Positions 13,766 to 26,912 of a stretch of DNA of 64,000 nucleotides are shown one piece after another. The translations under genes were made by a program, and so were the position numbers. Origin of the DNA: Mycobacteriales bacterium (GTDB lineage Bacteria; Actinomycetota; Actinomycetes; Mycobacteriales; CADCTP01). The notes beneath the pieces are model-generated. The model saw only the letters and a program-made list of their open reading frames with translations, had not been told where the DNA came from and made no database searches. The stretch spans positions 37,733 to 101,732 of the forward strand of contig DASYKU010000027.1 of the NCBI GenBank assembly GCA_035995165.1, in the 5' to 3' direction. Numbering within the stretch: position 1 is the stretch's first letter; each line of letters starts with the position of its first letter.

Positions 13766-14493
13766 GCGTCGAGCCCGAGCTTCACCGCGACGCCCAGCCC
13801 GCAGACGGCGATGAAGACCCGCAGCGGACCGTCCGGCAGCCGGCGGACCACGGCCGGGCCGATCCAGCCGCCGGTGAAGAAGCCCAGCGCCAGCGGCACC
13901 ACCGCGGTCCAGTGCACCGGCCCGAACAGCGCGAACGTCAGCGCCGCGACCGCGTTGGCGGCCGAGGAGATCACGTTCTTCATCGCGATCGACCGGGCCA
14001 GCGGCTGGTCCAGCAGCGCGGTCAGCACGGCCAGCACCAGCACTCCCCCGGCCGCGCCGAAGTAGCCGGTGTAGACGGCCACCGCGAGGAGGCCGAAGCG
14101 CAGCAGCCGGCTGTGCTCCCGGCCGGCCTCCGGCTGCGGCCGGGGCCGGCGCAGCAGCACCAGCGAGGCGCCGGCGATCAGCCAGGGCACGGCCGCCTCG
14201 AACGCCGACTCCGGCGTGAGCAGCAGCAGCACCGCGCCGATCGCGCCGCCGGCCGCGTTGAGCAGCCCGAACCGCACCAGCCGGGCCCGCTGTCCGGACA
14301 GCTCCGGCCGGGAGCCGGCCGCGGCGCCGAAGCCGACGAACACCAGCGCGGTCGTGTTGGTGACGTTCGCGGCCAGCGGACCCAGTCCGAGCGCCAGCAG
14401 GGCCGGGTACGAGACGAGCGAGGCCAGGCTGGCGACCACGCTCACGACCCCCGCGAGGACCCCCGCCGCGTACAGCCAGAGCACGTCGGACAC
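13756..14493 (-). CDS. TauE/SafE-family sulfite/anion exporter, 245 aa
   Basis: GTG at 14491-14493 gives VSDVLWLYAAGVLAGVVS... The protein is polytopic and hydrophobic with the duplicated TauE-type pattern (VSYPALLALG, YTGYFGAAGGVL). The ORF-track start at 14655 adds a basic, non-membrane leader and was rejected. Confidence 0.8.
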   Translation of the reverse strand: MSDVLWLYAAGVLAGVVSVVASLASLVSYPALLALGLGPLAANVTNTTALVFVGFGAAAGSRPELSGQRARLVRFGLLNAAGGAIGAVLLLLTPESAFEAAVPWLIAGASLVLLRRPRPQPEAGREHSRLLRFGLLAVAVYTGYFGAAGGVLVLAVLTALLDQPLARSIAMKNVISSAANAVAALTFALFGPVHWTAVVPLALGFFTGGWIGPAVVRRLPDGPLRVFIAVCGLGVAVKLGLDAYG

Positions 14494-14636
14494 GGGCTCC
14501 AGTCTCGACGGTGGCCGATCCGGTCTCGTTCCCGGGACGTTTACGTGCCGTCTCTGTCCGGATGGCCGTTTCCGCCGTACGCTCCGAATTCTCAGGCCCA
14601 AATGCTTCGGGTCGTACCGACGAACGGAGTAAGGCC

Positions 14637-15293
14637 ATGTCGAAAATCCGTGCACTTCTCGCTCTGCTCGCCGCCGTGCTCGGAATGGCCGTGCTGATGG
14701 CGCCGTCGGCGCAAGCCGCCACCGTCAGCACGACGCTCCGGGCCGGGGCCTCCGGGCTGCCGGTCGCGACCGAGGTCCGCACCGGCTACACCCGGGCGAT
14801 GTTCCACCTCTGGATCGACGCCGACGGCGACGGCTGCGATACCCGCAACGAGGTGCTCATCGCCGAGGCGACGACCCAGCCGGCGATCGGCGCCGGCTGC
14901 AAGCTCACCGGCGGCCGCTGGCACTCCTACTACGACAACGTCGACTGGACGCTCAGCTCGGATCTGGACATCGACCACCTCGTACCGCTGGCCGAGGCCT
15001 GGGACTCCGGTGCCCGCAACTGGACCGCGACCCAGCGGGAGACGTACGCGAACGACCTCGGCGACGCCCGGGACCTCGTCGCGGTGACCGACAACGTCAA
15101 CCAGTCCAAGGGCGACCGGGACCCGGCCGAGTGGATGCCGTCGGCCACGTCGGCGACCTGCCGGTACGTCGCGGAGTGGGTCGCGGTGAAGATCCGCTGG
15201 CGGCTCACCGTGGACAGCGCCGAGAAGTCCGCGCTCACCGGCTTCGCCGCCGGCTGCACGAACGTCACCATCACCGTCACCCAGGCGATCTAG
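14637..15293 (+). CDS. secreted HNH/DUF1524-family nuclease, 218 aa
   Basis: ATG at 14637 follows GGAGTAAGG. The signal peptide is MSKIRALLALLAAVLGMAVLMAPSAQA. DCDTRNEVL...DIDHLVPLAEAW...DNVNQSKGDRDPAEW is the GmrSD C-terminal/DUF1524 HNH-type motif. Confidence 0.75.
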   Translation: MSKIRALLALLAAVLGMAVLMAPSAQAATVSTTLRAGASGLPVATEVRTGYTRAMFHLWIDADGDGCDTRNEVLIAEATTQPAIGAGCKLTGGRWHSYYDNVDWTLSSDLDIDHLVPLAEAWDSGARNWTATQRETYANDLGDARDLVAVTDNVNQSKGDRDPAEWMPSATSATCRYVAEWVAVKIRWRLTVDSAEKSALTGFAAGCTNVTITVTQAI

Positions 15294-15300
15294 GACACGC

Positions 15301-15471
15301 CTCCGGCGGCGAGCCCAAGACGTGGCCCGCCGCCGGAAGGGGTCCCGGCGGCGGGCCCAGGGGAGACCCGCCGCCGGAACGGTGGAGCTCCGGCGGCGGG
15401 CCCCAGGGGAGGCCCGCCGCCGGAACGGTGAGGTCCGGCGGCGGGCCACGGGGGACGGCCCACCGCCGGAC
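15301..15471. repeat. tandem array of GC-rich hairpins (three complete copies plus two half copies, ~44-nt period) between convergent genes; probable bidirectional terminators
   Basis: Perfect stems: 15324-15336/15345-15357 (13 bp), 15367-15378/15389-15400 (12 bp) and 15411-15424/15434-15447 (14 bp). All are built from gcccgccgccgga / tccggcggcgggc. Half copies lie at 15301-15315 and 15458-15471. Confidence 0.85.
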
Positions 15472-15487
15472 GTGAGCGAGGCGCGCC

Positions 15488-15991
15488 TCAGCGCACCAGC
15501 GGCCAGAGCCGCAGGATCACCCGCCCGCTGACCGCCGACACCGGCACCGAGCCGAAGATCCGCGAGTCGATCGACCCGTCCCGGGAGTCGCCGAGCACGA
15601 AGACGTCCCCGGCCGGCACGGTGACCGGTCCGAAGTAGACACCGTCGATCCGGGTGTGGTCGACGTACGGCTCGTCCGCCTCGACGCCGTCCACATAGAG
15701 GTAGGCGTCCCGGATCTCGACCTTCTGTCCGCCGGTGGCGACGACCCGCTTCACCACCAGGCTGTCGTCCTGCGGGTCGTGCAGGACCAGCAGCTGCCCG
15801 GCCGCGGGCGAGACGTGCCGCTGTATCAGCACGACGTCCCCGGACCGCAGCGTCGGCGCCATGCTGTCGCCGTCCACCCGCAGCGGCTCGGCGACGAAGA
15901 GCCTTACCAGCACGAGGACGAGGACGGCCACGGCGAGCAGAGCGGCCCGGGTCCGGACCGCCCTGCGCCCCCGCGCCGGAGCGACGGTCAA
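15488..15991 (-). CDS. lepB: signal peptidase I (S26), 167 aa
   Basis: Contains GDSMAPTL (Ser box), VKRVVATGG (Lys box) and LGDSRDGSIDSR, with one N-terminal TM helix. The proposed TTG start overlaps the multicopper oxidase stop (cTTGAc, 15988-15991); the exact start is uncertain. Confidence 0.75.
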   Translation of the reverse strand: MTVAPARGRRAVRTRAALLAVAVLVLVLVRLFVAEPLRVDGDSMAPTLRSGDVVLIQRHVSPAAGQLLVLHDPQDDSLVVKRVVATGGQKVEIRDAYLYVDGVEADEPYVDHTRIDGVYFGPVTVPAGDVFVLGDSRDGSIDSRIFGSVPVSAVSGRVILRLWPLVR

Positions 15992-17601
15992 GGGGTGTCC
16001 GGTCGGGCCGGGTCGGCGTTGATCGGGTCGTTCGGGTCGGGGCTCTGCAACCCGACCGAGAACTGCTGCATCATGTCGTGGTCCTCGTGGGGCAGGTTGT
16101 GGCAGTGCATCATGTACTTCCCGCGCTGGTGCTCGAAGCGCATGAGCACCTTCACGGTCTCGTTCTCGCCGATGTAGACGACGTCCTTCGGCCCCTTCTC
16201 GTAGTCGTACGGGGCGATGGGGTTGTTGCTGCCGAGCTTCCGGCTGAGGATCTGGAAGTCGACCAGGTGGATGTGGACCGGGTGGAACCAGCCACCGCTG
16301 CGATTCTCGATCTCCCAGATCTCCACGTCGTCCACCGCGGGGTTGGCCACCACCAGGTCGAAGCCGCTGTCGATGACGTCGTGCCAGGTCTTGCCGCTGA
16401 TCGACCACTCCCCGGCCGACGTCCGCTCGACCGCCATCTTGCGGGTGCGCACGGCGTTCGCGGCCGTCAGCGACATGACCGGCGACGAGGCCAGCGTGGT
16501 CGGGATCGTGTTGTTGGTGGAGTCGAACGGGCCGTCCACGACGTCGAACGCCATGATCTTGCCGGTGTCGTCGTAGTCGATGTTGTTCTTGTTCGACAGG
16601 TTCTTCAGCTCCACCCGCTTGCCGACGGGGTAGCGGGAGAAGTCGATGAGGATCTCGTACCGCTCGGCGTTGCCGTGCCGGTAGGAGGTGACCGTCTTCG
16701 CCACCGGCATCAGGCCGCCGTCGGTGGCCACCACCGTCATCGGGTCGCCCGAGCCCAGCTGCGGCTTGTACGACCGGGAGATCGAGGCGTTGAGGACGCG
16801 GAACCGGTAGACCCGCCGCTTCACCTGCATCACCGGCCACGGCCGGCCGTTGACCAGGACGATGTCGCCCCAGAGCCCGGACTCGGTGTGGTCGTCGTAG
16901 GAGAGCGTGCCGTTCTCGGCGAACATCGCGTCGGTGATGGTGATCGGCACGTCGAACTCGCCCTGCGGCAGCAGCGCCCGCTCCACCGGGTCGTGCAGGT
17001 GGTACTGCGCGGCCAGGCCGCCGTACGCGTTCTGCGCGGTGAAGTGCACGCCGTGGTCGTGGTACCAGAGCGTCCGGGCCGGCTGGAAGTTCGGGTACCG
17101 GTAGTCCTTGACGTATCCCGGCGCGGTGACGTCGCTGGCGTACCCGTCGTACTGGGGCAGCGAGGCCGAGCCGTGCAGGTGCGTCGAGGTGTCGAACGGG
17201 TGCCCGAACGCCGGGTGCAGCGCCGGCAGCTGGTTGCGCACCTTGAGCACCGCGCGGGTGCCCTGCTCCAGGCTGATCGTCGGGCCCGGCACCGAGCCGT
17301 TGTAGCCCCAGACCGGGGTGGTGAGTCCCGGCACGATCTGCGCGGTGCTCTGGCTCTCGGTCACCGTGTAGAAGTTCGTGGTGATGCCGTCACCGTCCAC
17401 AGTGGACGAGGACGGCTGCAGCACCGGCGGCCGCTGGAACGTGGCCTGGTACGGCTTGGGGAAGTTGGCCGACTTCAGCCGGCTGGCCTGCTTGCCGGCC
17501 GCGGCGCGGCCGAGCGGGACGCTGAGCGCCCCGACCCCGACGGCTCCGACGGCTCCGATCTTGAGGAGTCGTCGCCGGGAGTACTGGGTCGTGTCGAACA
17601 C
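15988..17601 (-). CDS. Tat-secreted three-domain multicopper oxidase, 537 aa
   Basis: GTG at 17599-17601 follows GGAGGA. The twin-arginine signal is QYSRRRLLKIGAVGAVG. Copper motifs HLHG, WYHDH, HPVHIHL and HCHNLPHEDHDMM are present. Confidence 0.85.
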   Translation of the reverse strand: MFDTTQYSRRRLLKIGAVGAVGVGALSVPLGRAAAGKQASRLKSANFPKPYQATFQRPPVLQPSSSTVDGDGITTNFYTVTESQSTAQIVPGLTTPVWGYNGSVPGPTISLEQGTRAVLKVRNQLPALHPAFGHPFDTSTHLHGSASLPQYDGYASDVTAPGYVKDYRYPNFQPARTLWYHDHGVHFTAQNAYGGLAAQYHLHDPVERALLPQGEFDVPITITDAMFAENGTLSYDDHTESGLWGDIVLVNGRPWPVMQVKRRVYRFRVLNASISRSYKPQLGSGDPMTVVATDGGLMPVAKTVTSYRHGNAERYEILIDFSRYPVGKRVELKNLSNKNNIDYDDTGKIMAFDVVDGPFDSTNNTIPTTLASSPVMSLTAANAVRTRKMAVERTSAGEWSISGKTWHDVIDSGFDLVVANPAVDDVEIWEIENRSGGWFHPVHIHLVDFQILSRKLGSNNPIAPYDYEKGPKDVVYIGENETVKVLMRFEHQRGKYMMHCHNLPHEDHDMMQQFSVGLQSPDPNDPINADPARPDTP

Positions 17602-17698
17602 TGTGTTCCTCCGCGTGGGGTAGGAGGTGGGCAGGACGCGGGTTCCGGGTGAGGGCCGGATCCCGTTGGCGGGCCCGTGGGGAGCCCGAGTGTGGGAA

Positions 17699-17736
17699 CC
17701 CGCCCCCACAGGCCCGGGAAGGCCTGTGGGGGCGGG
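17699..17736 (-). terminator. GC-rich hairpin just downstream of the giant secreted-protein gene
   Basis: The stem cccgcccccacaggcc / ggcctgtgggggcggg is 16 bp with a 6-nt loop, 17 nt after the stop at 17753. No clear U-tract follows. Confidence 0.5.
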
Positions 17737-17752
17737 GTACTGCTGAGGGGAC

Positions 17753-20700
17753 CTACTTCCCGGTGCCGGTCAACGCGGCCTGCACCGTGGTCGGGACGGT
17801 GGTCAGGTCACCGGTGACGACGAGGCTGGCGGAGTACGCCTGGACCAGCGTCGGCCGGAACGTGACCGTGAGGTTGCAACTGCGGTTGGCCGCCAGCGAG
17901 GTCCCGAGGCACCCGGCACCGGTGACGGTGAACGCCGCGGCGTTCGTCCCGGTGATGGAGGCCGCGGAGACCTGTCCGACGATCGTGCCGACGTTCTTGA
18001 CCGACACGGTCAGGGACTTCGTGGCGTTCCGGTTGACCGTGCTGAAGGCGACCGGGCTCGGGGTCAGCGTGAACGACGACCCCAGCCCGTTCGCGGTCAG
18101 CGAGACGGTCGTGCTCCCGGTGCCCGCGTTGTGCGGGATCACCAGGCTCCCGGTCTGGGAACCCAGCGCCGTCGGCGCGTACTTCACCGAGATGCTGCAC
18201 GTCGCGTTCGGTGCGATCGCGACGGTGCAGGTGTTGGCGGTGATCGAGTAACCCGACGCGCCCGTCCCGGTGAGGGTCGGGTTCCCGACCACCAGCGGAG
18301 CGGTTCCGGTGTTCTTCACCGTCGTCGAGAGCGTCACCGGCTGTCCGGACGCGACGCTGCCGTACGCGAGCACGCCCGGGGTCACGGTGGCGGCCGGAGC
18401 CGCCGCCTGGTCGGCGATACCCGTCAGCGCGACCAACGTCGCGGGACCGGTACCGGTTGGGGTGATCCGCAACGAGGCGGTCTTCGTCCCGGCTGCTGCC
18501 GGGGCGAAGGCGACGGTCACCGTACAGGTGCCGTCGACGGCGACCGTGGCGCCGGCGCAGGTGCCGCCGGTGACCCGGAAGTCGCCACTGTTGACGCCCG
18601 CCAGCGCAACACTGGCGATCGTCGTGGGCACGGCCGCGACGTTGGTGAACGTCACGATCCGGTTGCCGCTGGTCTGACCCGCCGGCTGGTGTCCGAAGTC
18701 GACGGAGCTGACGTCGGACTGCAGCGGCCCGGCCAGCTTGCCGGAGACAGTGAACGTGTCGGTCGAACCCACGAGGTTGCCGGCCGTGTCGAACACCGAG
18801 AACTTGTCGGTCGGCTGGCTCTCGCCGGCGGCGACGTACGTGCCGCCGACGACCTTGTGGAACGCCCGGGCGTCGCCCAGGTAGTTGTCCGGCGCCGCGC
18901 TCTCCGCCGGATCCCAACGCAGGTAGCTCAGCGCGTCGGTGTCACCGTTCGGCTTGACGCCGTTGGTGGTGGCGTCCGGCAGCAGCGCCTGGGAGAAGTC
19001 GCACGTGGCAGGTGCGACCGGGGCGCAGCCGGTGTCGACGGTGCCGCCCGAGACCACGTCGGCGTTGCGGGTGATGGCACCCGCGGCGTTGGTGGTCCGG
19101 GTGAGCGTGCCGTACGGGGTCTGGAAGGTGTACGGCGTGTTCGGGCAGAGACCGCTGGTCACGAACACCCGCATGCGGGTGAAGGTGATCTGGTCCCCGT
19201 CGACCGGCCCGGCGTTCGCGAACGCGCCCTCGAGCGACATCCGCACGGCGGCCGTGCCGGGCGCGGTGCCGCCGCATCCCGGCGTGCCCACGGCCTGCGA
19301 GTCGACGACCTGGTAGAACCACTCGCCCGGGTAGTTGCCCGGGAAGCTGAGCGGCTCGTCCGGGTTGTAGAACTCGTCACCGAGCACCACGCAGTTCGGG
19401 TCGGTGATGTCCAGGCAGGGCTCGATCCGGGCGCCGGTCGAGTCCTGGTAGTACTTCGGGAAGTGGTCGCTGTCGCGGACGGTCGGCGAGACGGCCGGGT
19501 TCGCGTTCGACCCGATGCCGGTCAGCGCCAGCGTGTGCCGGCCGCCCGGTGCGTTGTCGACCACCTGGAGTCCGGCGGAGAAGTTCCCCGCCGAGGTCGG
19601 GCTGAACGCCAGGTCGACCTGGCAGCTCGCTCCGGGCGCCACGTTGGCCGTGGTGCACCGGTCGGCGACGATTCCGAACTGGGCGGCGCCGGTCCCGGTC
19701 AGCGACAGCGCCTGCACGTCCAGCGGCAGGGTGCCGCCGGCGTTGGAGATGCTGACCGTCCAGATCTTGCTGGTGGTGCCCAGGTGCTGCGGCACGAACG
19801 CGGCCGACCGCGGGTTGAAGCTGATCGCCGCGGTGGTACCGGCCGCACCGCCGGTGCCCACGAGCGGCACCGAGAACGGGTTGTTCAGGCCGGTGTGGTT
19901 GACGACCAGGCTGGCTGTTCGGTCACCGGTCGCCGTGGGTGTGAAGCTGAGCTGGATCGCACAGCTCGCCCCCGGCGCCAGCGTGGTGCCGGCGCAGGCG
20001 GTCGTGGTCGCGGTGAAGTCGGCCGCGTCCACGCCCGTCACGGCCAGCGTGTTGATCGTGAGCGGCGCGATGCCCGTGTTCTTCAGGTTCATCGTCGTGG
20101 TCGGCGAGGTGTTGCCGAGCGCGACGACGCCGAGGTCACCCGTGGCCGGGTCGGCCTCGAGCGGGCCCTTCAGCTTGCCGATGACGCTGAACACGTTGGT
20201 CTTGCCGACCTGGGTGCCGGACGCGTCGTTGATCTGGAAGTAGTTCGCCGGCGTGATGCCGTCCGGCGAGTACGGAGCGCCGATGACCTTGTGCAAGGTC
20301 ACGCCGTCACCGATGTAGCCGGCCGGGGCGGCCGGGGCCACCGCCGGGTCCCAGCGCAGGAAGCTCGCCGCGATCCGGCTCTGCAGCGCGATCGTGAAGT
20401 CGCAGGTGTCCGGGACCACGGGGGTGCAGCCGACGTCGTCGGTGCCGCGGTTGCGGGCGATGCTGCCCTGGTCGTTCGTGACCAGCGTGGTGGTGCCGTA
20501 CGGGCCGACGAAGTCGTAGCTCGTGTCCGGGCACAGTCCACCTTGGACACTGATCCGGACGCGGCCGAAGGTGATCTGCTCGGTCGGGGTCGGCGCGTCA
20601 GCGATGAACGCGCCTTCCAGGCCGAGGATCATCTTGGCGCGGCCGGCCGGACCGCCGTTGCAGCCGGGCGTGATGATGTTGTCCGACACGCCGCTCTGGT

Positions 20701-22390
20701 AGAAGAACTCACCCGGGAAGTTGGTCGGGAAGACCTCCGGGTTCACGCCGTCGAAGAACTCGTCCGGCGCGATCGCGCAGTTGGCGTCCTTGAAGTCATT
20801 GCACTGCGCGAGGGTGACCCCGTTCTCGTCGCGATACCACTGCGGGAAGCCGTCGGCCGCGTCGACCGGGCCGACCGCCGCGACGCCGCCGGTGCCGTTG
20901 CCGGTCACCGGGATCGAGTCGGGCGAGCTGGCCGAGTTCGACGCCAGGATGATCGACGTCGGGTGCTGACCGGTCGTCAACGGGACGAACACCACCCGCA
21001 ACGTGCAGGTGCCACCGACCGGCACCGTGGCCCCGGTCGCGCAGGTGTTCGCCAGGATCACGTAGTTGGAGCTCTCGGTGGTGTTCGGGTCCAGCACCGC
21101 GCTGGTGACGCCCAGCGGGGCGGTGCCGGTGTTGGTGATCGTGACGACCTTCTCCGGGCTCTGGGTCCGGACCCGCACGTCACCGAAGGCGACCGACGCG
21201 GTGGTCTTGGTCAGGATCGGCGCGGCACCCACGTTCGTGCCGGTGCCGGTGAGGGCGACCCGCAGCGGCGAGTGCACCCCGCCCGTGGACGCCAGGTCCA
21301 GCGAGGCTGTTCGGGCCCCGGCTGGTGCGAGTGGACTGAACCGGACGCCGACCGTACAGGTCTGGTCCCGGGTCAGGACCTGGCCGGAGCAGAGGTCGGC
21401 CCCGGGAACGACGGAGAACTGGGCCGCGTCGGTGCCGCTGATCGCGGCCGGCGAGACGGTGACCGCGTTCTTGTCCAGGTTGCTGACCGTGACGGTCCTG
21501 GTCGCGCTGGTGCTGCCGACACCGACGCCGCCGAAGTCGACGGAGGCGGGGTTGGAGACCAGCGAGCCGGCCAGCTTGCCGGACACGGTGAACTGGTTGG
21601 TGGTCATGCCCAGGTCGTTGCCGGCGCTGTCCAGGATGGCGAAGTCGTTGCCGACGGTGCCGCCGGTGATCGCGTGCGGCGTGGCGCCGTCACCGAGGTA
21701 GCCGGCCGGAGCGCCGGTGTCCCAGCGCAGGAAGCCGTTCTGGGCGTTGCCCATGATCCGGCTCGCGTTGGCCAGTGAGAAGTCGCACCGGGCCGGCGGG
21801 ACCACCGAGACGCAACCGATGTCCTGGGTGCCGATGTTCGGCACCACCGCGCCGGCCGCGTCGGTCGTGAACGTCTCGGTCCCGAACGGGTGCCGGAACT
21901 GGTACGTCGTGTCCGGGCAGAGGCCGCTGGTCACGCGGACCCGGATCCGGCCGAAGGTGATCTGCTCGCCGGCCACCGCCGGGCCGTTGACGAAGGCGCC
22001 CTCCAAGTCGAGGGTCACCAGCGCCCGGCCCGGAGCCGTCCCGGCACAACCCGGGGTGGGCACGTTCGCGGAGTCGGCCGAGGCGTAGAAGAACTCGTCC
22101 GGGAAGTTGGTCGGGAAGCTGACCGGCAGATTGGGGTCGAAGTCCGCGGCTGCCGGCAGCACGCAGTTCGCATCGTTGGGGTCGAGACAAGGCGCGACGC
22201 GGTTGCCTGCCGAGTCCTGGTACCAGCTCGGAAATCCGGTGGACGGGTCGACGGTGCTGGAGACCGCGCCGGCCGCGCTGGCGACGCCGGGAGCGGCGAA
22301 GGCGAGGCCCACGGCTCCTGACAGTGCGACCGCCAACGCCGCCAAGGCCGCGACGGGCCTCGGCAGTCGTGATCGGGTTCTCAATGACAT
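17753..22390 (-). CDS. 1,545-aa secreted protein: three copies of an uncharacterised six-Cys module, each followed by choice-of-anchor-D-like Ig-fold domains (seven in total)
   Basis: The Sec signal is MSLRTRSRLPRPVAALAALAVALSGAVGLAFAAPGVASA, and AGGGGG lies 9 nt upstream of the ATG. Repeated modules span aa 45-275, 505-743 and 968-1222. Domains of the type VDFGxVxVGxxSxxxxVTVxNxGxxPLxV...C...C.V.V.F.P...G match choice-of-anchor D. There is no C-terminal sorting signal. Confidence 0.85.
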   Translation of the reverse strand: MSLRTRSRLPRPVAALAALAVALSGAVGLAFAAPGVASAAGAVSSTVDPSTGFPSWYQDSAGNRVAPCLDPNDANCVLPAAADFDPNLPVSFPTNFPDEFFYASADSANVPTPGCAGTAPGRALVTLDLEGAFVNGPAVAGEQITFGRIRVRVTSGLCPDTTYQFRHPFGTETFTTDAAGAVVPNIGTQDIGCVSVVPPARCDFSLANASRIMGNAQNGFLRWDTGAPAGYLGDGATPHAITGGTVGNDFAILDSAGNDLGMTTNQFTVSGKLAGSLVSNPASVDFGGVGVGSTSATRTVTVSNLDKNAVTVSPAAISGTDAAQFSVVPGADLCSGQVLTRDQTCTVGVRFSPLAPAGARTASLDLASTGGVHSPLRVALTGTGTNVGAAPILTKTTASVAFGDVRVRTQSPEKVVTITNTGTAPLGVTSAVLDPNTTESSNYVILANTCATGATVPVGGTCTLRVVFVPLTTGQHPTSIILASNSASSPDSIPVTGNGTGGVAAVGPVDAADGFPQWYRDENGVTLAQCNDFKDANCAIAPDEFFDGVNPEVFPTNFPGEFFYQSGVSDNIITPGCNGGPAGRAKMILGLEGAFIADAPTPTEQITFGRVRISVQGGLCPDTSYDFVGPYGTTTLVTNDQGSIARNRGTDDVGCTPVVPDTCDFTIALQSRIAASFLRWDPAVAPAAPAGYIGDGVTLHKVIGAPYSPDGITPANYFQINDASGTQVGKTNVFSVIGKLKGPLEADPATGDLGVVALGNTSPTTTMNLKNTGIAPLTINTLAVTGVDAADFTATTTACAGTTLAPGASCAIQLSFTPTATGDRTASLVVNHTGLNNPFSVPLVGTGGAAGTTAAISFNPRSAAFVPQHLGTTSKIWTVSISNAGGTLPLDVQALSLTGTGAAQFGIVADRCTTANVAPGASCQVDLAFSPTSAGNFSAGLQVVDNAPGGRHTLALTGIGSNANPAVSPTVRDSDHFPKYYQDSTGARIEPCLDITDPNCVVLGDEFYNPDEPLSFPGNYPGEWFYQVVDSQAVGTPGCGGTAPGTAAVRMSLEGAFANAGPVDGDQITFTRMRVFVTSGLCPNTPYTFQTPYGTLTRTTNAAGAITRNADVVSGGTVDTGCAPVAPATCDFSQALLPDATTNGVKPNGDTDALSYLRWDPAESAAPDNYLGDARAFHKVVGGTYVAAGESQPTDKFSVFDTAGNLVGSTDTFTVSGKLAGPLQSDVSSVDFGHQPAGQTSGNRIVTFTNVAAVPTTIASVALAGVNSGDFRVTGGTCAGATVAVDGTCTVTVAFAPAAAGTKTASLRITPTGTGPATLVALTGIADQAAAPAATVTPGVLAYGSVASGQPVTLSTTVKNTGTAPLVVGNPTLTGTGASGYSITANTCTVAIAPNATCSISVKYAPTALGSQTGSLVIPHNAGTGSTTVSLTANGLGSSFTLTPSPVAFSTVNRNATKSLTVSVKNVGTIVGQVSAASITGTNAAAFTVTGAGCLGTSLAANRSCNLTVTFRPTLVQAYSASLVVTGDLTTVPTTVQAALTGTGK

Positions 22391-22658
22391 CGGTGATGCC
22401 CCCTAGGCATGCCTTCGGCCCAGTGCCGACGACCTGATCAGACTCGAAAAAACCGGCCGGTTCCGGTAAGCCGAGGGGTGGGGGTTGACGATCCCCAATC
22501 CAGGGGGGCCAGTGGAGTAGTACCTTCTGATCCGTTCGGCACGGCCAGCGCGTAGTCATGACCAATAACGCCATCCCACCGCGACAGATCCGCATCAGGA
22601 TGTAAGGCTGTGAACGGTGGCAAGACGGGTCACCCAAGTGGGGTGTCGGGGGGAGAGC

Positions 22659-23330
22659 GTGGAGCCGGTTACGAAGGTCGTCATCGTCGATGATCATCAG
22701 ACGCTGGTCGATCTGCTCCGACTGGCGTTGAGCGCGGAGACCGACATCGACGTCGTCGGCACCGCGGGCACGGCGTCGGAGGGGTTGCGGCTTGTCGACG
22801 ACACCAGGCCGGACCTGGTGTTGATGGACTTCGGGCTGCCCGATTCCGACGGCGTGACCACGGCGGCCGAGGTGCTGGTACGGCAGCCGACGACCCGTGT
22901 CGTGATGCTCACGGCGACCCATGACGGGTCGCTGATCAGCCGGGCCGCGGCGGCCGGCGTGTGCGGGTTCGTGGCGAAGACGGGGGCCTTCGGAGAAGTG
23001 CTGTCCGCGATCCGTACGGCCCGGACCGGGTCCATGGTCATCGACCCCACGGTGCTCGCCCGGCTGGTCCCGTCCCAGCGCAGGAACTCCGAGGATGACA
23101 GCGACCGGATGGTCGCGCCGCTGCTCACCCCACGGGAGCAGGAGGTGCTCGGCCTTCTCGGAGCCGGGATGGACGCCCGGGCCATCGCGCGGACGCTGTC
23201 GATCTCCCTTCACACCTGCCGGGGCTACGTGAAGAGCGTCCTGGCCAAGCTCGACTGCCACTCCCAGCTGGAGGCCGTCGTGGCGGCCGGCCGGTTGGGG
23301 CTGCTGCCCCCACCGGTGGAGCGGCGTTGA
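22659..23330 (+). CDS. NarL/LuxR-family response regulator, 223 aa
   Basis: GTG at 22659 follows GGGGGGAG. The receiver is KVVIVDDHQTLVDLL...PDLVLMDFGLPDSDG and the C-terminal HTH is LTPREQEVLGLLGAGMDARAIARTLSISLHTCRGYVKSVLAKL. Confidence 0.85.
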   Translation: MEPVTKVVIVDDHQTLVDLLRLALSAETDIDVVGTAGTASEGLRLVDDTRPDLVLMDFGLPDSDGVTTAAEVLVRQPTTRVVMLTATHDGSLISRAAAAGVCGFVAKTGAFGEVLSAIRTARTGSMVIDPTVLARLVPSQRRNSEDDSDRMVAPLLTPREQEVLGLLGAGMDARAIARTLSISLHTCRGYVKSVLAKLDCHSQLEAVVAAGRLGLLPPPVERR

Positions 23331-24721
23331 CTTTCTGGTCGCCGCGCGACCGCCGGCTGTCCGTCGTCGCCCGCGCGCTCGTGCAGCACGCGGTCGTCAG
23401 CATCATGGCGCTGGTGGTGGTCGGCGCGACCGCGGCGATCATCTGCGTCCGGGTGGTGCAGAGCCAGGCGCTGCGCCAGGCCGAGGGCGGCGGCGAGGTC
23501 GTGGCCACCCGGGTCGTCGCGCCGCTGATCAACCAGGGCGTGTACGACGGGGACACCGACGACCTGACCGCGCTCGACGACCGGGTCCGGATCCGCAAGT
23601 CGGGCAGCACGATCCAGCGGGTCAAGGTCTGGTCGGCCGAGGGCGTCATCCTCTACTGCGACGACCCACGGTTGATCGGCCAGCGCTACCCGCTGGAGCC
23701 CGAGGACAAGGCGGTCCTCGACGCCGGCGGCGTCGCCTCCGACGTCTCGGACCTGAGCAAGTCCGAGAACGTGCTGGACCAGAGCTTCGGCGAGAGCCTC
23801 GAGGTCTACGTCGGCACGAGGGACACCGAGGGCCGGCCGATCCTGGTCGAGACGTACTTCACCGCGGACCGATTGCACGCCGACGAGGCCGCCCTGATCC
23901 GCCGGATCATCCCGGTGGTGCTGACCGCGCTGCTGGTGCTGGGGCTGCTCCTGGTCCCGCTGGCGTACTCGCTGGCCCGCCGGGTGGCCCGGTACGAGCG
24001 GGAGCGGCAGGCGATGATCCGGCTGGCGGTCGAGGCGTCCTCGGCCGAGCGGCGCCGGGTCGCCGGGGAGTTGCACGACGGGGTGATCCAGGACCTCGCG
24101 GGGGTGGGCTATGCCCTGACCGCGCTGGACGCCCAGATCGCCGGACTCGGCAGCGGGCCCACGCCGGGGAGCGGCTCGCCCCCACCGATCGGCGCGCTGC
24201 GGGCGACCCTGCGCACGGCCCAGCGGCTGGTGCACGACGACGTCCTGGCGCTGCGCGAGCTGACCGGCATGCAGTACGCGGCCGACAGCGGCGCGGCCGA
24301 CCCCGCCGCCGCCCTTCGGGTCATCGCCGACGGCGTCCGCGAGGAGGGCACGCCGGTCGAGATGATCGTCGGCGAGCTGCCGACCCTGCCGGCCGCGCAC
24401 CGGGCCGCGCTGATCCGGGTCGGCCGCGAGGCCCTGCGCAACGCGGCCAAGCACGCCCCCGGCTCGAACGTGACGCTGGAGCTCGGCACCGAGGGTGAGT
24501 CCGCGGTGGTCACGGTCACCGACGACGGCCCGGGCTTCGACCCGACCGCGGCGCTCGGCCCGGTCGACGGCCACATCGGCCTGGCGCTGCTCACCGACGC
24601 CGCCGAGGGCGTGGGCGGGCTGCTGGACCTGCGCTCCCGTCCCGGCCACGGCACCACGGTCAGGCTGGCCGTGCCGATCCCGCGCACCGCGGCCGGCCCG
24701 AACGGCCGCACCACCGCCTGA
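23327..24721 (+). CDS. sensor histidine kinase (HisKA_3 type), 464 aa
   Basis: The TTG start overlaps the response-regulator stop (TTGA). The protein has two TM segments, the H-box ERRRVAGELHDGVIQDLAG and the ATPase motifs REALRNAAKHA and DDGPGF. Confidence 0.85.
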   Translation: MTFWSPRDRRLSVVARALVQHAVVSIMALVVVGATAAIICVRVVQSQALRQAEGGGEVVATRVVAPLINQGVYDGDTDDLTALDDRVRIRKSGSTIQRVKVWSAEGVILYCDDPRLIGQRYPLEPEDKAVLDAGGVASDVSDLSKSENVLDQSFGESLEVYVGTRDTEGRPILVETYFTADRLHADEAALIRRIIPVVLTALLVLGLLLVPLAYSLARRVARYERERQAMIRLAVEASSAERRRVAGELHDGVIQDLAGVGYALTALDAQIAGLGSGPTPGSGSPPPIGALRATLRTAQRLVHDDVLALRELTGMQYAADSGAADPAAALRVIADGVREEGTPVEMIVGELPTLPAAHRAALIRVGREALRNAAKHAPGSNVTLELGTEGESAVVTVTDDGPGFDPTAALGPVDGHIGLALLTDAAEGVGGLLDLRSRPGHGTTVRLAVPIPRTAAGPNGRTTA

Positions 24722-24899
24722 CCTGCCTTCTCCGCCCCTGCGACTCCGATGAGAGGCGTGCGTCCGGGCTGCAAGAAATGGACGACACGACGAAACTTGC
24801 CGTGTGTGCGTCGGAATATGGCGTCGCGATGTCTTGTGGAGTGACTTGCGCCACCCCTATGGTCACTTTGCCGAGACCGTGGAGAGAAACGAGCCCGCG

Positions 24900-26912
24900 A
24901 TGCGACGGAGCACCGGACCGGACGGACGACGGACGAGATGGGTCGCGGGCGCCGCGGCCGCGCTGACGGCCGGCGGGCTCGCGCTCGCGCCGGGCACCGC
25001 GGCGGCCCAGACGACCCCCGCGCCGGTGGTGACCAGGGCCGCGCTCGACCCGGCCCTGGTCGCCGGCCGCGGCGCTGCGGTGCCGTACACGGAGCAGGAG
25101 GCGGAGAACGCGGTCACCACCGGCACCCGCATCGGCCCCGGGCGGGACGCGTACACGCTGCCGGCCGAGGCCTCCGGGCGGACCGCCGTCCGCCTCGCCC
25201 CGGGCCAGTACGTCGAGTTCACGCTGCCCGGCGCCGCGAACGCGATCACGGTCCGGTACAGCATCCCGGACGCGCCCACCGGCGGCGGGATCACCGCCCC
25301 GCTGGCCGTCACCGGCAGCCACGGCCTGCGGACGTCGATGACGCTGACCTCGCAGTACGCCTGGCTCTACAACCAGTTCCCGTTCTCCAACGACCCGAAC
25401 GCGGGGCTGCTGCACCCGGAGCAGTTCATCACCGAGTGCCAGTGCGTGCCGCAGGACACCGTGCCGTTCCCGACGGTCAGCGTCCCGTTCCGGCCCAACC
25501 ACTTCTACGACGAGCAGCGGCTGCTGCTCGGGCGGACGCTGCGGGCCGGGGACACGATCCGGCTGACCGCGAGCGCCGGCGCCGCCTGGACCGTGCTCGA
25601 CCTGCTCGACTCCCAGCTGGTCGGGCTGCCGCACGTCCGGCTGGCCGCGGCCAACGTGCTGCTGTTCGGCGCCGACCCGAGCGGGCGGCGCGACTCCGCG
25701 CCCGCGTTCGACCGGGCGATCGCGTTCGCCCGGGCCCACCACCTGGTCGTCTACCTCCCGCCGGGCACGTTCCAGGTCAACCGGCACATCGTCGTCGACC
25801 ACGTGACCGTCGAGGGCGCCGGCAGCTGGTACACGATCGTCAAGGGCCACGAGATCGCGCTGAGCACGCCGGCCCCGGACGGCTCGGTGCACAGCGGCGT
25901 CGGCTTCTACGGCCGGTCCGCGGCCGAGGGCGGCAGCTCCGACGTACACCTGTCCGGCTTCGCGATCGAGGGCGACGTCCGCGAGCGCATCGACACCGAC
26001 CAGGTCAACGGCGTCGGCGGCGCGCTGAGCGACTCCACCGTGGACGGCCTCTACCTGCACCACACCAAGGTCGGGCTCTGGCTGGACGGGCCGATGACGA
26101 ACCTGCGGGTGACGGACAACGTCATCGCCGACCAGATCGCGGACGGGCTGAACTTCCACACCGGCGTGACCGACTCGCTCGTCGCGAACAATGTCGTCCG
26201 CAACACCGGCGACGACGGGCTGGCGATGTGGTCGGACCGGACCGAGGACGCGCGGGACACGTTCGACCACAACACCGTGCAGACGCCGGTCCTGGCGAAC
26301 GCGATCGCGCTCTACGGCGGCACCGACAACACGATCTCGGCCAACCTCGTCGCCGACCCGATCCGGGAGGGCAGCGGCATCCAGCTCGGGTCCCGGTTCG
26401 GTGCCGAGGCGTTCACCGGGCACGTCTGGGTCACCGACAACACGACCGTCCGGGCCGGGCCGTTCGAGCTGAACTGGAACATCGGCATGGGCGCGATCTG
26501 GATATTCGCGCTGGAGAAGAACATCGACGCCGACATCGAGGTCGTCGGCGACCATTTCCTCGACAACACGTACAACGCGATCATGCTGGTGAGCGATTTC
26601 CCGGTGAAGGACCTCGTCTCGATCACGAACGTGCATTTCCGGGACGTGCAGGTCGACGGGACCGGGACGTCGGTGGTTTCGGCCCGGGTGGCCGGCGGGG
26701 CGTCGTTCGAGAACGTGGACGCCCGCAACGTCGGCGCGGTCGGCATCAACAACTGCGGCTCGTTCCACTTCACCCCGGCCGGGTCCGAATTCACGGTCAC
26801 CGACCTCGGCGGGAACGACGGCGGCTGGCTGGCGCCGTTCGAGCTGCCGAACACGATCACCTGCGACGACCGGCCGCCGGTGGTGCCGCCGCCGCCGCCG
26901 TCCGCGTTCTGA
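24900..26912 (+). CDS. secreted glycoside hydrolase with an N-terminal beta-sandwich and a right-handed beta-helix (GH87-like alpha-1,3-glucanase/mycodextranase candidate), 670 aa
   Basis: ATG at 24900 gives a signal peptide ending APGTAAAQ. A CBM-like block (YTEQEAENA...GQYVEFTLPGAANAITVRYSIPD) is followed by parallel-beta-helix repeats (VTDNVIADQIADGLNFH, VANNVVRNTGDDGLAMW, NTISANLV). The family call is from memory only. Confidence 0.6.
   Translation: MRRSTGPDGRRTRWVAGAAAALTAGGLALAPGTAAAQTTPAPVVTRAALDPALVAGRGAAVPYTEQEAENAVTTGTRIGPGRDAYTLPAEASGRTAVRLAPGQYVEFTLPGAANAITVRYSIPDAPTGGGITAPLAVTGSHGLRTSMTLTSQYAWLYNQFPFSNDPNAGLLHPEQFITECQCVPQDTVPFPTVSVPFRPNHFYDEQRLLLGRTLRAGDTIRLTASAGAAWTVLDLLDSQLVGLPHVRLAAANVLLFGADPSGRRDSAPAFDRAIAFARAHHLVVYLPPGTFQVNRHIVVDHVTVEGAGSWYTIVKGHEIALSTPAPDGSVHSGVGFYGRSAAEGGSSDVHLSGFAIEGDVRERIDTDQVNGVGGALSDSTVDGLYLHHTKVGLWLDGPMTNLRVTDNVIADQIADGLNFHTGVTDSLVANNVVRNTGDDGLAMWSDRTEDARDTFDHNTVQTPVLANAIALYGGTDNTISANLVADPIREGSGIQLGSRFGAEAFTGHVWVTDNTTVRAGPFELNWNIGMGAIWIFALEKNIDADIEVVGDHFLDNTYNAIMLVSDFPVKDLVSITNVHFRDVQVDGTGTSVVSARVAGGASFENVDARNVGAVGINNCGSFHFTPAGSEFTVTDLGGNDGGWLAPFELPNTITCDDRPPVVPPPPPSAF

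What the first reader, a model, noticed from the sequence alone, without database searches (positions are those of the whole stretch)
15488..24721. Neighbourhood hypothesis: a two-component system, the giant secreted protein, a Tat multicopper oxidase and a dedicated signal peptidase may form one extracellular assembly or cross-linking system
The gene order on the minus strand is giant secreted protein (17753..22390), then Tat-exported three-domain multicopper oxidase (15988..17601), then a small signal peptidase I. The peptidase's TTG start overlaps the oxidase stop (TTGA), which indicates translational coupling.

A NarL-type response regulator and histidine kinase pair (also TTGA-coupled) is divergent from the giant gene across a 268-bp, visibly less GC-rich region.

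Dedicated signal peptidases sitting next to their matrix-protein substrates are known from the Bacillus tapA-sipW-tasA operon. Laccase-like oxidases can cross-link proteins through Tyr radicals. The combination suggests a processed and oxidatively cross-linked surface or matrix protein. I know of no described system with this composition.

One caveat: a strong hairpin (17699-17736) sits between the giant gene and the oxidase, so the two may be separate transcription units.
Basis: inference. Interest (0 to 1): 0.6.

Follow-up and report, generated by a model that had tools for sequence, protein, structure and literature searches.

The report
Secreted scaffold protein plus oxidase module
A giant secreted protein built from an undescribed domain sits beside a copper oxidase, that oxidase's own signal peptidase and a two-component regulator; the same gene set recurs in many bacteria and is switched on together when an Arthrobacter strain starts oxidising manganese.

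Summary
The neighbourhood is not a chance arrangement.

The giant protein contains three copies of a ~240-aa, disulfide-rich, all-beta domain that I call "X". X has no Pfam, NCBIfam or PDB relative, yet it matches about 2,570 protein clusters.

Among 79 genomic loci that encode X:
- 34 carry an extracellular oxidase within 10 kb.
- 15 carry an ortholog of this multicopper oxidase, and all 15 also carry the small signal peptidase I.
- 35 carry the NarL-type response regulator and 34 the kinase.
- 18 carry a SARP regulator and 9 carry CopC.

Gene order differs between lineages, and the link extends to Chloroflexota, Bacillota and Proteobacteria.

In Arthrobacter sp. QXT-31, published RNA-seq shows co-induction at the onset of Mn(II) oxidation of an X protein, a 62%-identical oxidase, a MopA-like peroxidase, a small signal peptidase I and a SARP/kinase pair.

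The peptidase tracks the oxidase rather than the giant protein. Tyrosine cross-linking is unproven, and Mn(II) or phenol oxidation on an X scaffold is at least as likely.

In this window the module is three separate transcription units. The closest relative lacks the oxidase-peptidase cassette at this site.

The parts
17753..22390 (-). Giant secreted protein, 1545 aa, mature ~151 kDa, pI 4.6. Layout: Sec signal peptide (aa 1-39), then three modules, each an X domain followed by 2-3 choice-of-anchor D / ASH Ig-like domains. No cell-wall anchor.
   Evidence: (NF012200 344.7 bits, 7 stretches)
21536..22273 (-). X domain copy 1 (aa 40-285), an undescribed all-beta, Asp-rich domain stabilised by conserved Cys pairs.
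   Evidence: 48-50% identical to copies 2 and 3; no Pfam hit; 18 invariant columns; AF2 pLDDT 86.9, pTM 0.84; no Foldseek PDB match; no PDB sequence match at E<=10; 2,571 clusters at E<=1e-3
20135..20866 (-). X domain copy 2 (aa 509-752)
18698..19495 (-). X domain copy 3 (aa 966-1231)
17699..17736 (-). GC-rich 17-bp hairpin starting 16 nt after the giant gene's stop codon. Probably the giant gene's own terminator or 3' stabiliser.
   Evidence: -41.7 kcal/mol, z -6.6; hairpin kept, with changes on both arms, in L004 and L005, where unrelated genes follow
15988..17601 (-). Tat-exported three-domain multicopper oxidase of the bilirubin-oxidase/CotA clade, 537 aa. Own RBS GGAGGAA at 17606-17612.
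   Evidence: nearest PDB sequences: bilirubin oxidase E 5e-99, CotA 2e-68; HLH, HDH, HPVHIH, HCHNLPHEDHDM; Tat motif in 109 of 120 orthologs
15488..15991 (-). Small P-type signal peptidase I (S26), 167 aa, one N-terminal TM segment. Its start overlaps the MCO stop (TTGA).
   Evidence: (Ser motif SM.PT and Lys motif KR kept in all 23 MCO-linked homologs; box E GD.R..S.DSR recognisable in most, degraded in L023, L025 and L031)
15434..15471 (-). Strong hairpin after the S26 stop, between the convergent S26 gene and a GmrSD_C-like gene. Likely marks the end of the MCO-S26 operon.
   Evidence: fold of 15401-15490; identity of the convergent gene, from L005 synteny
22391..22658 (.). Divergent control region between the giant gene and the response regulator, GC 0.62. 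Holds a block (about 22487-22539) conserved in L004 and L005.
22617..23330 (+). NarL/LuxR-type response regulator (REC + GerE). The alternative start at GTG 22659 is more likely.
   Evidence: (92% identical in L005)
23327..24721 (+). Sensor histidine kinase (HisKA_3 + HATPase_c) with two TM segments flanking a ~135-aa extracytoplasmic loop. Its TTG start overlaps the regulator's stop.
   Evidence: (83% identical in L005)

Best explanation
The five genes are the local version of a recurrent, facultatively assembled extracellular-oxidase module.

Proposed sequence of events:
1. The kinase senses an external cue through its extracytoplasmic loop. With its NarL-type regulator it switches on the giant gene and the MCO-S26 operon (inferred).
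2. The laccase-like oxidase (bilirubin-oxidase/CotA type) folds in the cytoplasm and is exported by Tat. Its twin-arginine leader is removed by the translationally coupled, dedicated signal peptidase I, releasing it from the membrane. The pairing is shown; the substrate relationship is inferred.
3. The giant protein is secreted by Sec. It displays three X domains on Ig-like spacers and acts outside the cell as the oxidase's partner, either as a scaffold that binds the substrate or product, or as a substrate itself (inferred from co-localisation).

The chemistry is a one-electron oxidation. I consider Mn(II) or phenolic oxidation on, or next to, the acidic X scaffold the most likely version. 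Oxidative cross-linking of the X protein is the next most likely.
For: **X-first survey.** In 79 genome loci (1.41 Mb) chosen only for encoding X:
- 15 have an MCO ortholog (44-60% identical), and all 15 have the S26 peptidase.
- 31 have some MCO, 11 have a haem peroxidase, and 34 have at least one oxidase.
- 35 have the RR, 34 the HK, 18 a SARP regulator and 9 CopC.
- Far more abundant families appear in only 4-8 of the 85 loci clustered (those 79 plus six earlier loci and the window): ABC ATPase 8, ECF sigma 5, SDR 4.

**Shuffled gene orders** argue for selection on proximity:
- X>SARP>RR>HK>(REC>)MCO>S26>CopC in Phycicoccus and in MAGs.
- X> then Perox< S26< MCO< in Kocuria.
- S26< MCO< REC< then X> in Microlunatus.
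- X directly followed by an MCO in L026, L088 and four Chloroflexi loci.

**Other oxidase classes** also sit next to X:
- MnxG-like giant MCOs.
- MopA-like peroxidase-RTX proteins.
- MCO-SCO-X on a Skermanella plasmid.
- MCO/X/MCO on an Arthrobacter plasmid.

**MCO-first sampling.** S26 lies immediately downstream in 7 of 7 loci, and X lies within 10 kb in 4 of 7.

**S26 and MCO features.**
- S26 keeps its catalytic Ser and Lys in all 23 copies examined.
- MCO orthologs keep the Tat motif and an AxA-type cleavage site followed by a conserved KSASRL..MPRPYQ stretch.

**Expression in Arthrobacter sp. QXT-31**, Mn(II)-oxidising mutant against wild type (log2 fold change):
- MCO RS00880: 9.4 (62% identical to the window MCO)
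- X protein RS00870: 5.4
- MopA-like peroxidase: 8.7
- 150-aa signal peptidase I: 8.7
- BTAD/SARP regulator plus kinase: 9.1 and 9.3
- CopC and YcnI: 3-4

Source: supplement of bioRxiv 10.1101/2025.05.09.653071, read. Gene identities were checked.
Against: - 45 of 79 X loci have no oxidase within 10 kb.
- The closest relative (L005; 82-87% nucleotide identity, collinear) has a short-chain dehydrogenase where the window has MCO-S26. L004 has the giant gene alone.
- In the window, a conserved terminator hairpin separates the giant gene from the MCO.
- No motif is shared between the two upstream regions.
- The Arthrobacter plasmid MCO next to X has no S26.
- No activity, substrate or interaction has been measured for any X protein.
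- Co-induction in QXT-31 covers a large regulon and does not prove that X takes part in Mn oxidation.
- Orthology of the QXT-31 signal peptidase to this one was not checked.
Confidence: 0.6

Rival explanations
1. The giant protein is a matrix protein whose signal peptide is removed by the dedicated peptidase, as SipW does for TasA. The laccase-like oxidase then cross-links it covalently through tyrosine radicals into an insoluble surface layer.
For: - The giant protein is secreted, multi-domain, Ig-rich and has no anchor.
- X is accompanied by both MCOs and haem peroxidases. These two unrelated enzyme families share the ability to make phenoxyl radicals, which fits a common protein substrate better than a docking partner.
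- X has four nearly invariant Tyr residues.
Against: - S26 tracks the MCO (15 of 15; 7 of 7). Among the X loci lacking the MCO ortholog, only L048 (weak) and L049 (contig edge) have one.
- S26 is translationally coupled to the MCO and separated from the giant gene by a terminator.
- The peptidase is P-type Ser-Lys, not SipW-like.
- The giant protein is Tyr-poor: 1.7% overall and 0.7% in the Ig-like parts.
Confidence: 0.2
2. A copper homeostasis or resistance locus. The oxidase is a cuprous oxidase like CueO or CopA, the TCS senses copper, and the giant protein is an unrelated or copper-buffering surface protein.
For: - CopC, YcnI, CopC-CopD and SCO genes occur in related loci.
- The Arthrobacter plasmid copy lies in a metal-resistance island.
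- CueO is the top NCBIfam hit.
Against: - The MCO scores far below the CueO and CopA cut-offs: 194 against 525 bits, and 46.6 against 479 bits.
- Its nearest solved relatives are bilirubin oxidase and CotA.
- It has 2.4% Met and I saw no Met-rich insert when reading it, though none was searched for.
- The giant protein has 0.8% His and 0.4% Met, so it is not a copper sponge.
- The window has no CopC, CopD or P-type ATPase nearby.
- CopC and SCO are equally well explained as copper suppliers for the oxidase.
Confidence: 0.1
3. No functional link in this organism. The MCO-S26 cassette landed next to the giant gene through an indel, and the three transcription units work independently.
For: - The window differs from its collinear relative L005 by four indels, one of which is exactly the S26+MCO segment 15294-17752.
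- The giant gene has its own terminator.
- No shared operator was found.
Against: - The same juxtaposition arose repeatedly, in different orders and in five phyla.
- An insertion that recreates a widespread pairing is what selection for co-localisation predicts.
- The homologs are co-expressed in Arthrobacter.
Confidence: 0.1

Closest known systems
Bacterial Mn(II)-oxidase systems: Bacillus mnxEFG, Pseudomonas putida MnxG/McoA/MopA with MnxS1/S2/R, and Arthrobacter sp. QXT-31 BoxA
   Same: - An extracellular MCO or animal-haem peroxidase under two-component control.
- The oxidase classes next to X (CotA/bilirubin-oxidase type, MnxG-like, MopA-like) are the known Mn(II)-oxidase classes.
- Homologs of the window genes are induced with Mn(II) oxidation in QXT-31.
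   Different: - The window MCO is not MnxG, since it did not hit NF041487. Whether it is an ortholog of BoxA is untested.
- None of the papers I searched or read on these systems mentions an X-domain partner or a dedicated signal peptidase I.
- The regulators here are NarL/SARP-type, not NtrC-type.
- Mn(II) oxidation by this enzyme has not been tested.
Bacillus subtilis tapA-sipW-tasA (a dedicated signal peptidase with its matrix protein)
   Same: A specialised type I signal peptidase encoded beside secreted extracellular-matrix-like proteins.
   Different: - SipW is an ER-type (Ser-His) peptidase in the same operon as its substrates.
- This enzyme is P-type (Ser-Lys), is coupled to an oxidase gene, and is co-conserved with the oxidase rather than with the giant protein.
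Streptomyces sodN-sodX (NiSOD with its own S26 maturation protease)
   Same: An S26-family peptidase encoded next to, and co-conserved with, a single metalloenzyme that it is presumed to mature.
   Different: - SodX trims a cytoplasmic pro-peptide to create the Ni hook.
- This peptidase has a membrane anchor and full signal-peptidase motifs.
- It scores 51.5 bits on TIGR02754 against a cut-off of 63.25, so it is not a SodX member.
MCO clusters with copper-delivery accessories: copABCD, Rhodobacter cutOFG, and MCO-SCO pairs
   Same: An exported MCO encoded with small accessory proteins for its maturation or metallation. CopC, YcnI or SCO occur in related loci.
   Different: - The accessory in the window is a signal peptidase, not a copper chaperone.
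- The MCO is laccase/bilirubin-oxidase-like, not CopA/CueO-like.
Choice-of-anchor D / ASH (HYDIN-like) Ig-domain surface proteins
   Same: The seven Ig-like domains of the giant protein match NF012200 and PF15780/PF22544/PF22073.
   Different: These models cover only the spacers. The three X domains, about half of the protein, match no model.

Membership tests
Type I signal peptidase, P-type (S26A, LepB/SipS-like) | Family profile above the curated cut-off | tested here: met
   PF10502 126.9 bits (cut-off 22.9); TIGR02227 126 bits (cut-off 47)
Type I signal peptidase, P-type (S26A, LepB/SipS-like) | Ser-Lys catalytic dyad motifs (SM.PT, KR) and box E (GDN/S-R..S.DSR), with an N-terminal membrane anchor | tested here: met
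   The window enzyme has GDSMAPT, VKRV and GDSRDGSIDSR, plus a hydrophobic stretch at aa 19-35. The Ser and Lys motifs are kept in all 23 MCO-linked homologs aligned with B. subtilis SipS; box E is degraded in a few (L023, L025, L031).
Type I signal peptidase, P-type (S26A, LepB/SipS-like) | Cleaves signal peptides; identity of the substrate | not testable with these tools
   Only genomic linkage to the Tat-MCO is available (22 of 22 pairs adjacent).
SipW-type dedicated matrix signal peptidase (tapA-sipW-tasA) | ER/archaeal-type peptidase (Ser-His) | tested here: not met
   TIGR02228 (archaeal/ER type) scores 19.7 bits against a cut-off of 51.85. A catalytic Lys is present.
SipW-type dedicated matrix signal peptidase (tapA-sipW-tasA) | Encoded in one operon with, and co-conserved with, the matrix protein | tested here: not met
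   A hairpin terminator separates the giant gene from MCO-S26. S26 is present in 15 of 15 X loci with the MCO ortholog. Among the other 64 it occurs only in L048 (weak match) and L049 (contig edge).
SodX (NiSOD maturation protease) | TIGR02754 above cut-off and adjacency to sodN | tested here: not met
   51.5 bits against 63.25. The neighbour is an MCO, not sodN.
Three-domain multicopper oxidase, bilirubin-oxidase/CotA clade | Three cupredoxin domains and the four copper-ligand motifs (HxH, HxH, HxxHxH, HCHxxxHxxxxM) | tested here: met
   PF07732, PF00394 and PF07731 all score above their cut-offs. Motifs H141LH, H181DH, H440PVHIH and H499CHNLPHEDHDM are present. Nearest PDB sequences are bilirubin oxidase (E 5e-99) and CotA (2e-68).
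Three-domain multicopper oxidase, bilirubin-oxidase/CotA clade | Tat export signal | tested here: met
   SRRRLLK, then a hydrophobic region, then AAA|G. The motif occurs in 109 of 120 orthologs. Export itself was not tested.
CueO / CopA cuprous oxidases; PhsA | Equivalog profile above cut-off | tested here: not met
   CueO 194 against 525 bits; PhsA 187.5 against 950; copper_res_A 46.6 against 479.
Mn(II)-oxidising MCOs (MnxG, BoxA) | Membership of the MnxG family | tested here: not met
   The window MCO did not hit NF041487. Only the giant MCOs in L069, L059 and L080 hit it, and they score below the cut-off.
Mn(II)-oxidising MCOs (MnxG, BoxA) | Mn(II) oxidase activity, or induction together with Mn(II) oxidation | tested here: inconclusive
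   A 62%-identical Arthrobacter QXT-31 homolog (RS00880) is induced with a log2 fold change of 9.4 alongside Mn(II) oxidation. The activity of this enzyme and its orthology to BoxA are untested.
NarL/LuxR-type two-component system | REC + GerE regulator and HisKA_3 + HATPase_c kinase, adjacent genes | tested here: met
   overlapping stop and start. All named equivalogs (NarL, MadR, MctR and others) score below their cut-offs, so the signal is unknown.
Choice-of-anchor D domain proteins | NF012200 above cut-off | tested here: met
   344.7 bits against 45, in 7 stretches. The model covers only the Ig-like spacers.
X domain (no existing family) | Match to any Pfam-A, NCBIfam or PDB entry | tested here: not met

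The most novel reading that the evidence does not exclude
The X domain is a new extracellular fold that defines a widespread, undescribed class of partner proteins for bacterial one-electron oxidases (CotA/BOD-type, MnxG-like and MopA-like). Such a partner could be the missing scaffold, template or substrate that determines where and how Mn oxides or radical-coupled polymers are deposited outside the cell. The oxidase's private signal peptidase would then be a new maturation step for Tat-exported multicopper oxidases.
Probability: 0.35. Interest if true: 0.8.

Novelty: new variant of a known kind. Interest (0 to 1): 0.68.

Why it matters
Bacterial Mn(II) and phenol oxidation by multicopper oxidases and haem peroxidases drives manganese, carbon and trace-metal cycling. 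Its accessory components, and what it does for the cell, are still poorly understood.

This analysis identifies a protein family of about 2,570 clusters that no domain database models. It sits next to all three known classes of these oxidases in five phyla, and it is co-induced with them in the one strain for which data exist.

That gives specialists concrete candidates to delete and purify: the X protein, the oxidase-linked signal peptidase, and the NarL/SARP regulators.

A signal peptidase I dedicated to a single Tat-exported metalloenzyme would also be an unusual case in protein export. Only a few comparable dedicated cases come to mind, such as SipW with TasA and SodX with NiSOD.

Tried and rejected
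1. **Early conclusion, later revised.** After the first three MCO contexts I concluded that only the MCO-S26 pair was conserved. tblastn then showed that the "PKD" proteins upstream in L001 and L002 carry the X domain.
2. **Possible MCO-S26 fusions.** The 670-aa Arthrobacter MCOs are not fusions. Their extra C-terminus is a Pro/Thr linker plus an unrelated domain.
3. **MctS/MctR and MadRS leads** from NCBIfam. The hits score far below cut-off, and MctRS is a rhizobial pyruvate-transport regulator.
4. **Giant protein as a copper sponge.** Rejected: His is 0.8% and Met 0.4%.
5. **Shared operator.** I searched for a 14-mer (up to 2 mismatches, both strands) common to the MCO and giant upstream regions and found none. 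The sigma-70 consensus scan also found no promoter.
6. **SARP or CopC in the window.** No homolog found.
7. **Fusions and anchors.** None of the 150 best X-family proteins is fused to an oxidase or carries a convincing LPXTG anchor.
8. **Micrococcales proteins in the X position.** The secreted proteins in L087 and L089 are not detectable X homologs (hmmsearch E above 0.02).
10. **Literature.** Seven literature searches found no description of this gene combination or of the domain.

Full report

On the minus strand:
- The giant ORF is 17753..22390 (1545 aa).
- A 17-bp perfect hairpin lies at 17699-17736 (-41.7 kcal/mol, z = -6.6).
- The multicopper oxidase (MCO) is 15988..17601. It has a GTG start, a GGAGGAA ribosome-binding site and the Tat motif SRRRLLK.
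- A 167-aa S26 signal peptidase I is 15488..15991. Its TTG start overlaps the MCO TGA stop.

On the plus strand, a REC+GerE regulator and a HisKA_3 kinase overlap as TTGA.

The divergent intergenic region has GC 0.62. It is 268 bp long if the regulator starts at GTG 22659, which places the receiver domain at residue 7.

Pfam and NCBIfam confirm every assignment above the curated cut-offs. The MCO has all four copper-ligand motifs.

**2. Anatomy of the giant protein**

The protein has a Sec signal peptide followed by three modules. Each module is a ~245-aa domain, here called X, at aa 40-285, 509-752 and 966-1231. The three copies are 48-50% identical to one another. Each is followed by two or three choice-of-anchor D / ASH Ig-like domains.

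X matches nothing in the databases:
- Pfam-A: best E-value 0.2.
- NCBIfam: nothing beyond choice-of-anchor D.
- PDB sequences, searched with a profile: no hit at E<=10.

An alignment of 21 X domains has 18 invariant columns. The motifs are GFPxWYQD, NFPDEFFY, LEGAF, QIxFGRxR, HPFG, TxDIGC, CDF, FLRWD and PAGYLGD. Several cysteines appear or disappear together, as disulfide partners would.

AlphaFold2 gives a confident all-beta model (pLDDT 86.9, pTM 0.84). It has no Foldseek match in the PDB; the best hit has E 0.24 and TM below 0.25.

A profile search of 1.84 billion representative proteins finds 2,571 proteins at E<=1e-3 and 1,304 at E<=1e-30. Many are about 1,500-1,600 aa with three X copies.

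The mature giant protein is acidic (pI 4.6), and its X domains are Asp-rich. It is poor in His (0.8%), Met (0.4%) and Tyr (1.7%), and it has no wall anchor.

**3. Is the neighbourhood conserved?**

My first three contexts of MCO homologs suggested that only the MCO-S26 pair was conserved. tblastn then showed that the "PKD" proteins lying 2-3 kb upstream in Catenuloplanes japonicus (L001) and in a JGI contig (L002) begin with an X domain.

I then used the single genome-collection scan with the X alignment. It found 204 genome loci encoding X, of which 79 were fetched with flanks of up to 10 kb, 1.41 Mb in total.

tblastn counts across those 79 loci:

| Feature within 10 kb of X | Loci (of 79) |
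|---|---|
| Ortholog-grade MCO (44-60% identical) | 15, all with S26 |
| Any MCO | 31 |
| Haem peroxidase | 11 |
| At least one oxidase | 34 |
| NarL-type regulator / kinase | 35 / 34 |
| SARP (BTAD) regulator | 18 |
| CopC | 9 |

The gene-family clustering covered 85 loci plus the window segment: those 79 plus six fetched earlier. Apart from the X proteins and MCOs, which fell into one cluster, only these families recur. The next most frequent families are present in 9 loci or fewer. Families that are far more abundant in genomes appear in only 4-8 loci: ABC ATPases 8, ECF sigma factors 5, SDRs 4. This serves as an internal control.

Gene order differs between lineages:
- X>SARP>RR>HK>(REC>)MCO>S26>CopC in Phycicoccus and several MAGs.
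- X> then Perox< S26< MCO< and SARP> RR> HK> in Kocuria.
- S26< MCO< REC< then X> YcnI> CopCD> in Microlunatus.
- X followed directly by an MCO in L026 (5-bp gap), Pilimelia (L088) and four Chloroflexi loci, where the MCO is only 26-28% identical and two kinases plus one regulator lie upstream.

Other oxidase classes also sit next to X:
- MnxG-like giant MCOs in Neobacillus, Actinoplanes and a gammaproteobacterial MAG. Their best NCBIfam hit is NF041487, below its cut-off.
- MopA-like peroxidase-RTX proteins.
- MCO-SCO-X on a Skermanella plasmid.
- MCO/X/MCO on an Arthrobacter plasmid, inside a metal island.

Sampling in the other direction, starting from MCO orthologs, gives S26 immediately downstream in 7 of 7 loci and X within 10 kb in 4 of 7. 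In Arthrobacter burdickii and Cryobacterium a different secreted protein occupies the same position. It has an unmodelled N-terminal domain followed by CHB_HEX_C/fn3 domains, and a SARP regulator lies nearby.

**4. What the window's own history shows**

L005 is 82-87% identical in DNA and collinear with window positions 1-33190, apart from four indels:
- 7802-14618, carrying a DUF4011 helicase and TauE;
- 15294-17752, which is exactly S26 plus the MCO (L005 has a short-chain dehydrogenase gene there);
- 18326-21104, two of the giant protein's three modules;
- 24710-26952, an alpha-1,3-glucanase-like gene.

L005 keeps the TCS divergent from its one-module X gene; the regulator is 92% and the kinase 83% identical.

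L004 shares only window 17667-22565, at 80% identity. That span covers the giant gene, its hairpin and its upstream region, with no TCS and no MCO.

The hairpin is retained in both relatives, with changes on both arms. It therefore belongs to the giant gene and probably terminates it.

The window thus holds three transcription units: the giant gene, MCO-S26 and RR-HK. The MCO-S26 cassette is a movable unit that here has come to lie beside the X gene, reproducing a pairing seen widely elsewhere. I found no motif shared by the two upstream regions.

**5. Which protein does the peptidase serve?**

- All 23 MCO-linked S26 copies keep the catalytic Ser and Lys motifs. Most keep box E. All have a single N-terminal anchor.
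- The gene always lies directly after the MCO gene, often with overlapping stop and start, as in the window, L001, L002 and L003.
- Among X loci without the MCO ortholog, only L048 (a weak match) and L049 (contig edge) have one.
- MCO orthologs keep a Tat leader and an AxA-type site, followed by a conserved KSASRL..MPRPYQ stretch.

The parsimonious reading is that the peptidase is a private leader peptidase for the Tat-exported oxidase. That is closer in logic to SodX with SodN than to SipW with TasA. It is a member of neither family: TIGR02754 and TIGR02228 both score below their cut-offs. The substrate assignment is an inference.

**6. What chemistry is involved?**

The MCO's nearest solved relatives are fungal bilirubin oxidase (E 5e-99) and B. 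subtilis CotA (2e-68). It scores far below the CueO, CopA and PhsA cut-offs. This argues against a cuprous-oxidase role. CopC, YcnI and SCO in related loci can be read as copper suppliers for the enzyme.

The enzyme classes that accompany X are CotA/BOD-type MCOs, MnxG-like MCOs and MopA-like haem peroxidases. These are the three classes implicated in bacterial Mn(II) oxidation, as named in the papers listed.

Direct expression evidence comes from Arthrobacter sp. QXT-31 (bioRxiv 10.1101/2025.05.09.653071; main text read, supplement). In a spontaneous mutant that oxidises Mn(II), compared with wild type, the log2 fold changes are:

| Gene | Product | log2FC |
|---|---|---|
| BWQ92_RS00880 | MCO | 9.4 |
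| RS00865 | MCO | 8.9 |
| RS02455 | boxA | 9.3 |
| RS00885 | peroxidase | 8.7 |
| RS00870 | "hypothetical" | 5.4 |
| RS08145 | 150-aa signal peptidase I | 8.7 |
| RS15745 | BTAD/SARP regulator | 9.1 |
| RS15750 | kinase | 9.3 |
| RS00720, RS00715 | CopC, YcnI | 3-4 |

I verified three of these identities:
- RS00870 is an X-domain protein. Its name and coordinates (169211-171178) match, and hmmsearch gives E = 6e-78.
- RS00880 is 62% identical to the window MCO over 535 aa.
- RS00885 is MopA-like.

The homologous gene set is therefore co-regulated and switches on together with Mn(II) oxidation. This does not show that X takes part in the reaction. The orthology of RS08145 and of BoxA to the window genes was not checked.

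Because X accompanies structurally unrelated oxidases, it is more likely tied to the shared chemistry than to docking on one particular enzyme. It could bind the substrate or product, or be a substrate itself. Its acidity and Asp-richness fit cation binding. Its low Tyr content weakens, but does not exclude, the cross-linking idea.

**7. Verdict**

The proposed roles need revision. The peptidase most likely serves the oxidase. The chemistry is unresolved between Mn(II)/phenol oxidation on an X scaffold, which I favour, and oxidative cross-linking of X. The module is facultative rather than a fixed operon.

I found no description of this gene combination or of the X domain in seven literature searches.

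I class it as a new variant of a known kind, namely an accessory-gene cluster around an exported oxidase, that contains a domain family with no match in Pfam, NCBIfam or the PDB.

Noticed in passing
window 7802-14618: This segment is absent from the otherwise collinear relative L005. It carries a 1940-aa DUF4011/AAA_11/AAA_12/MTES_1575 helicase-nuclease-like gene (7943-13765, +) and a TauE/SafE exporter (13756-14655, -). It looks like an inserted island.
   Followed up: partly
window 24710-26952: An alpha-1,3-glucanase-like beta-helix gene (CatAgl_D1/D2; 24804-26912, +) lies directly after the kinase. L005 lacks it at that position, so it is not part of the conserved module.
   Followed up: partly
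window 18326-21104 against L005 10742-10743: The closest relative has a one-module X gene where the window has three modules, so modules have been gained or lost recently. In L005 the gene is called in three fragments, so frameshifts or assembly errors are possible.
   Followed up: partly
L087 6665-8749 (-), L089 12699-15005 (-): In Arthrobacter burdickii and Cryobacterium the position next to MCO-S26 and SARP is held by a different secreted protein. It has a conserved ~400-aa N-terminal region that no database models (VPxFPDNxxVFPDRDFxTIEGYQD...), followed by CHB_HEX_C_1/Fn3 domains. The X profile does not detect it. It may be an analogous partner family.
   Followed up: partly
L061 5911-7053, L083 3518-4675, L046 6587-7888, L003 294-1007: A hydrophobic, probably membrane, protein family with no Pfam or NCBIfam match sits immediately downstream of a second, PhsA/CueO-like MCO type (26-30% identical to the window MCO). 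This occurs in several loci that also encode X or the MCO-S26 pair.
   Followed up: no
window 17446-17490 (MCO aa 38-52) and orthologs P0001-P0120: The stretch just after the predicted Tat-leader cleavage site (A|KSASRL....MPRPYQ) is strongly conserved among MCO orthologs, and its first part lies upstream of the region that aligns to solved bilirubin oxidase (from MCO residue 54). It could be a recognition element for the dedicated peptidase, or a pro-segment.
   Followed up: no
window 22487-22539: A sequence block upstream of the giant gene (GACGATCCCCAAT.C..GGGGG....GGAGTAGTAC.TTCTGATCCGTTCGG on the + strand) is conserved in L005 and also in L004, which has no adjacent TCS. It is a candidate promoter, operator or 5'-UTR element of the X gene.
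   Followed up: no
window 22452-22467 (-): A terminator-like hairpin plus T-run lies in the giant gene's 5' leader, about 60 nt before its ATG. The T-run is not conserved in L004 or L005, so it may be fortuitous.
   Followed up: partly
L024, L027, L030, L035 (Chloroflexi): Upstream of X>MCO these loci carry two tandem sensor kinases and one NarL-type regulator (L030 is cut off after the X gene). A thioredoxin-like TlpA/ResA gene follows the MCO in L024. As I recall it, the layout resembles the two-kinase MnxS1/MnxS2/MnxR arrangement in Pseudomonas putida.
   Followed up: no
L023 11830-12201, L025 17669-18040, L031 8152-8595, L050 9162-9560, L079 5844-6281: A stand-alone receiver-domain gene (123-147 aa, no output domain) lies immediately upstream of the MCO in several loci. 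The window has none.
   Followed up: no
L090 (Arthrobacter sp. FW305-BF8 plasmid NZ_CP084562, 14.8-22.3 kb): The plasmid-borne MCO/X/MCO cluster sits among metal-handling genes: a P-type ATPase, ArsR/SmtB, CcdA/TlpA, a CDF transporter, an Nramp transporter and a DtxR-like regulator. The strain was isolated from groundwater at Oak Ridge.
   Followed up: no
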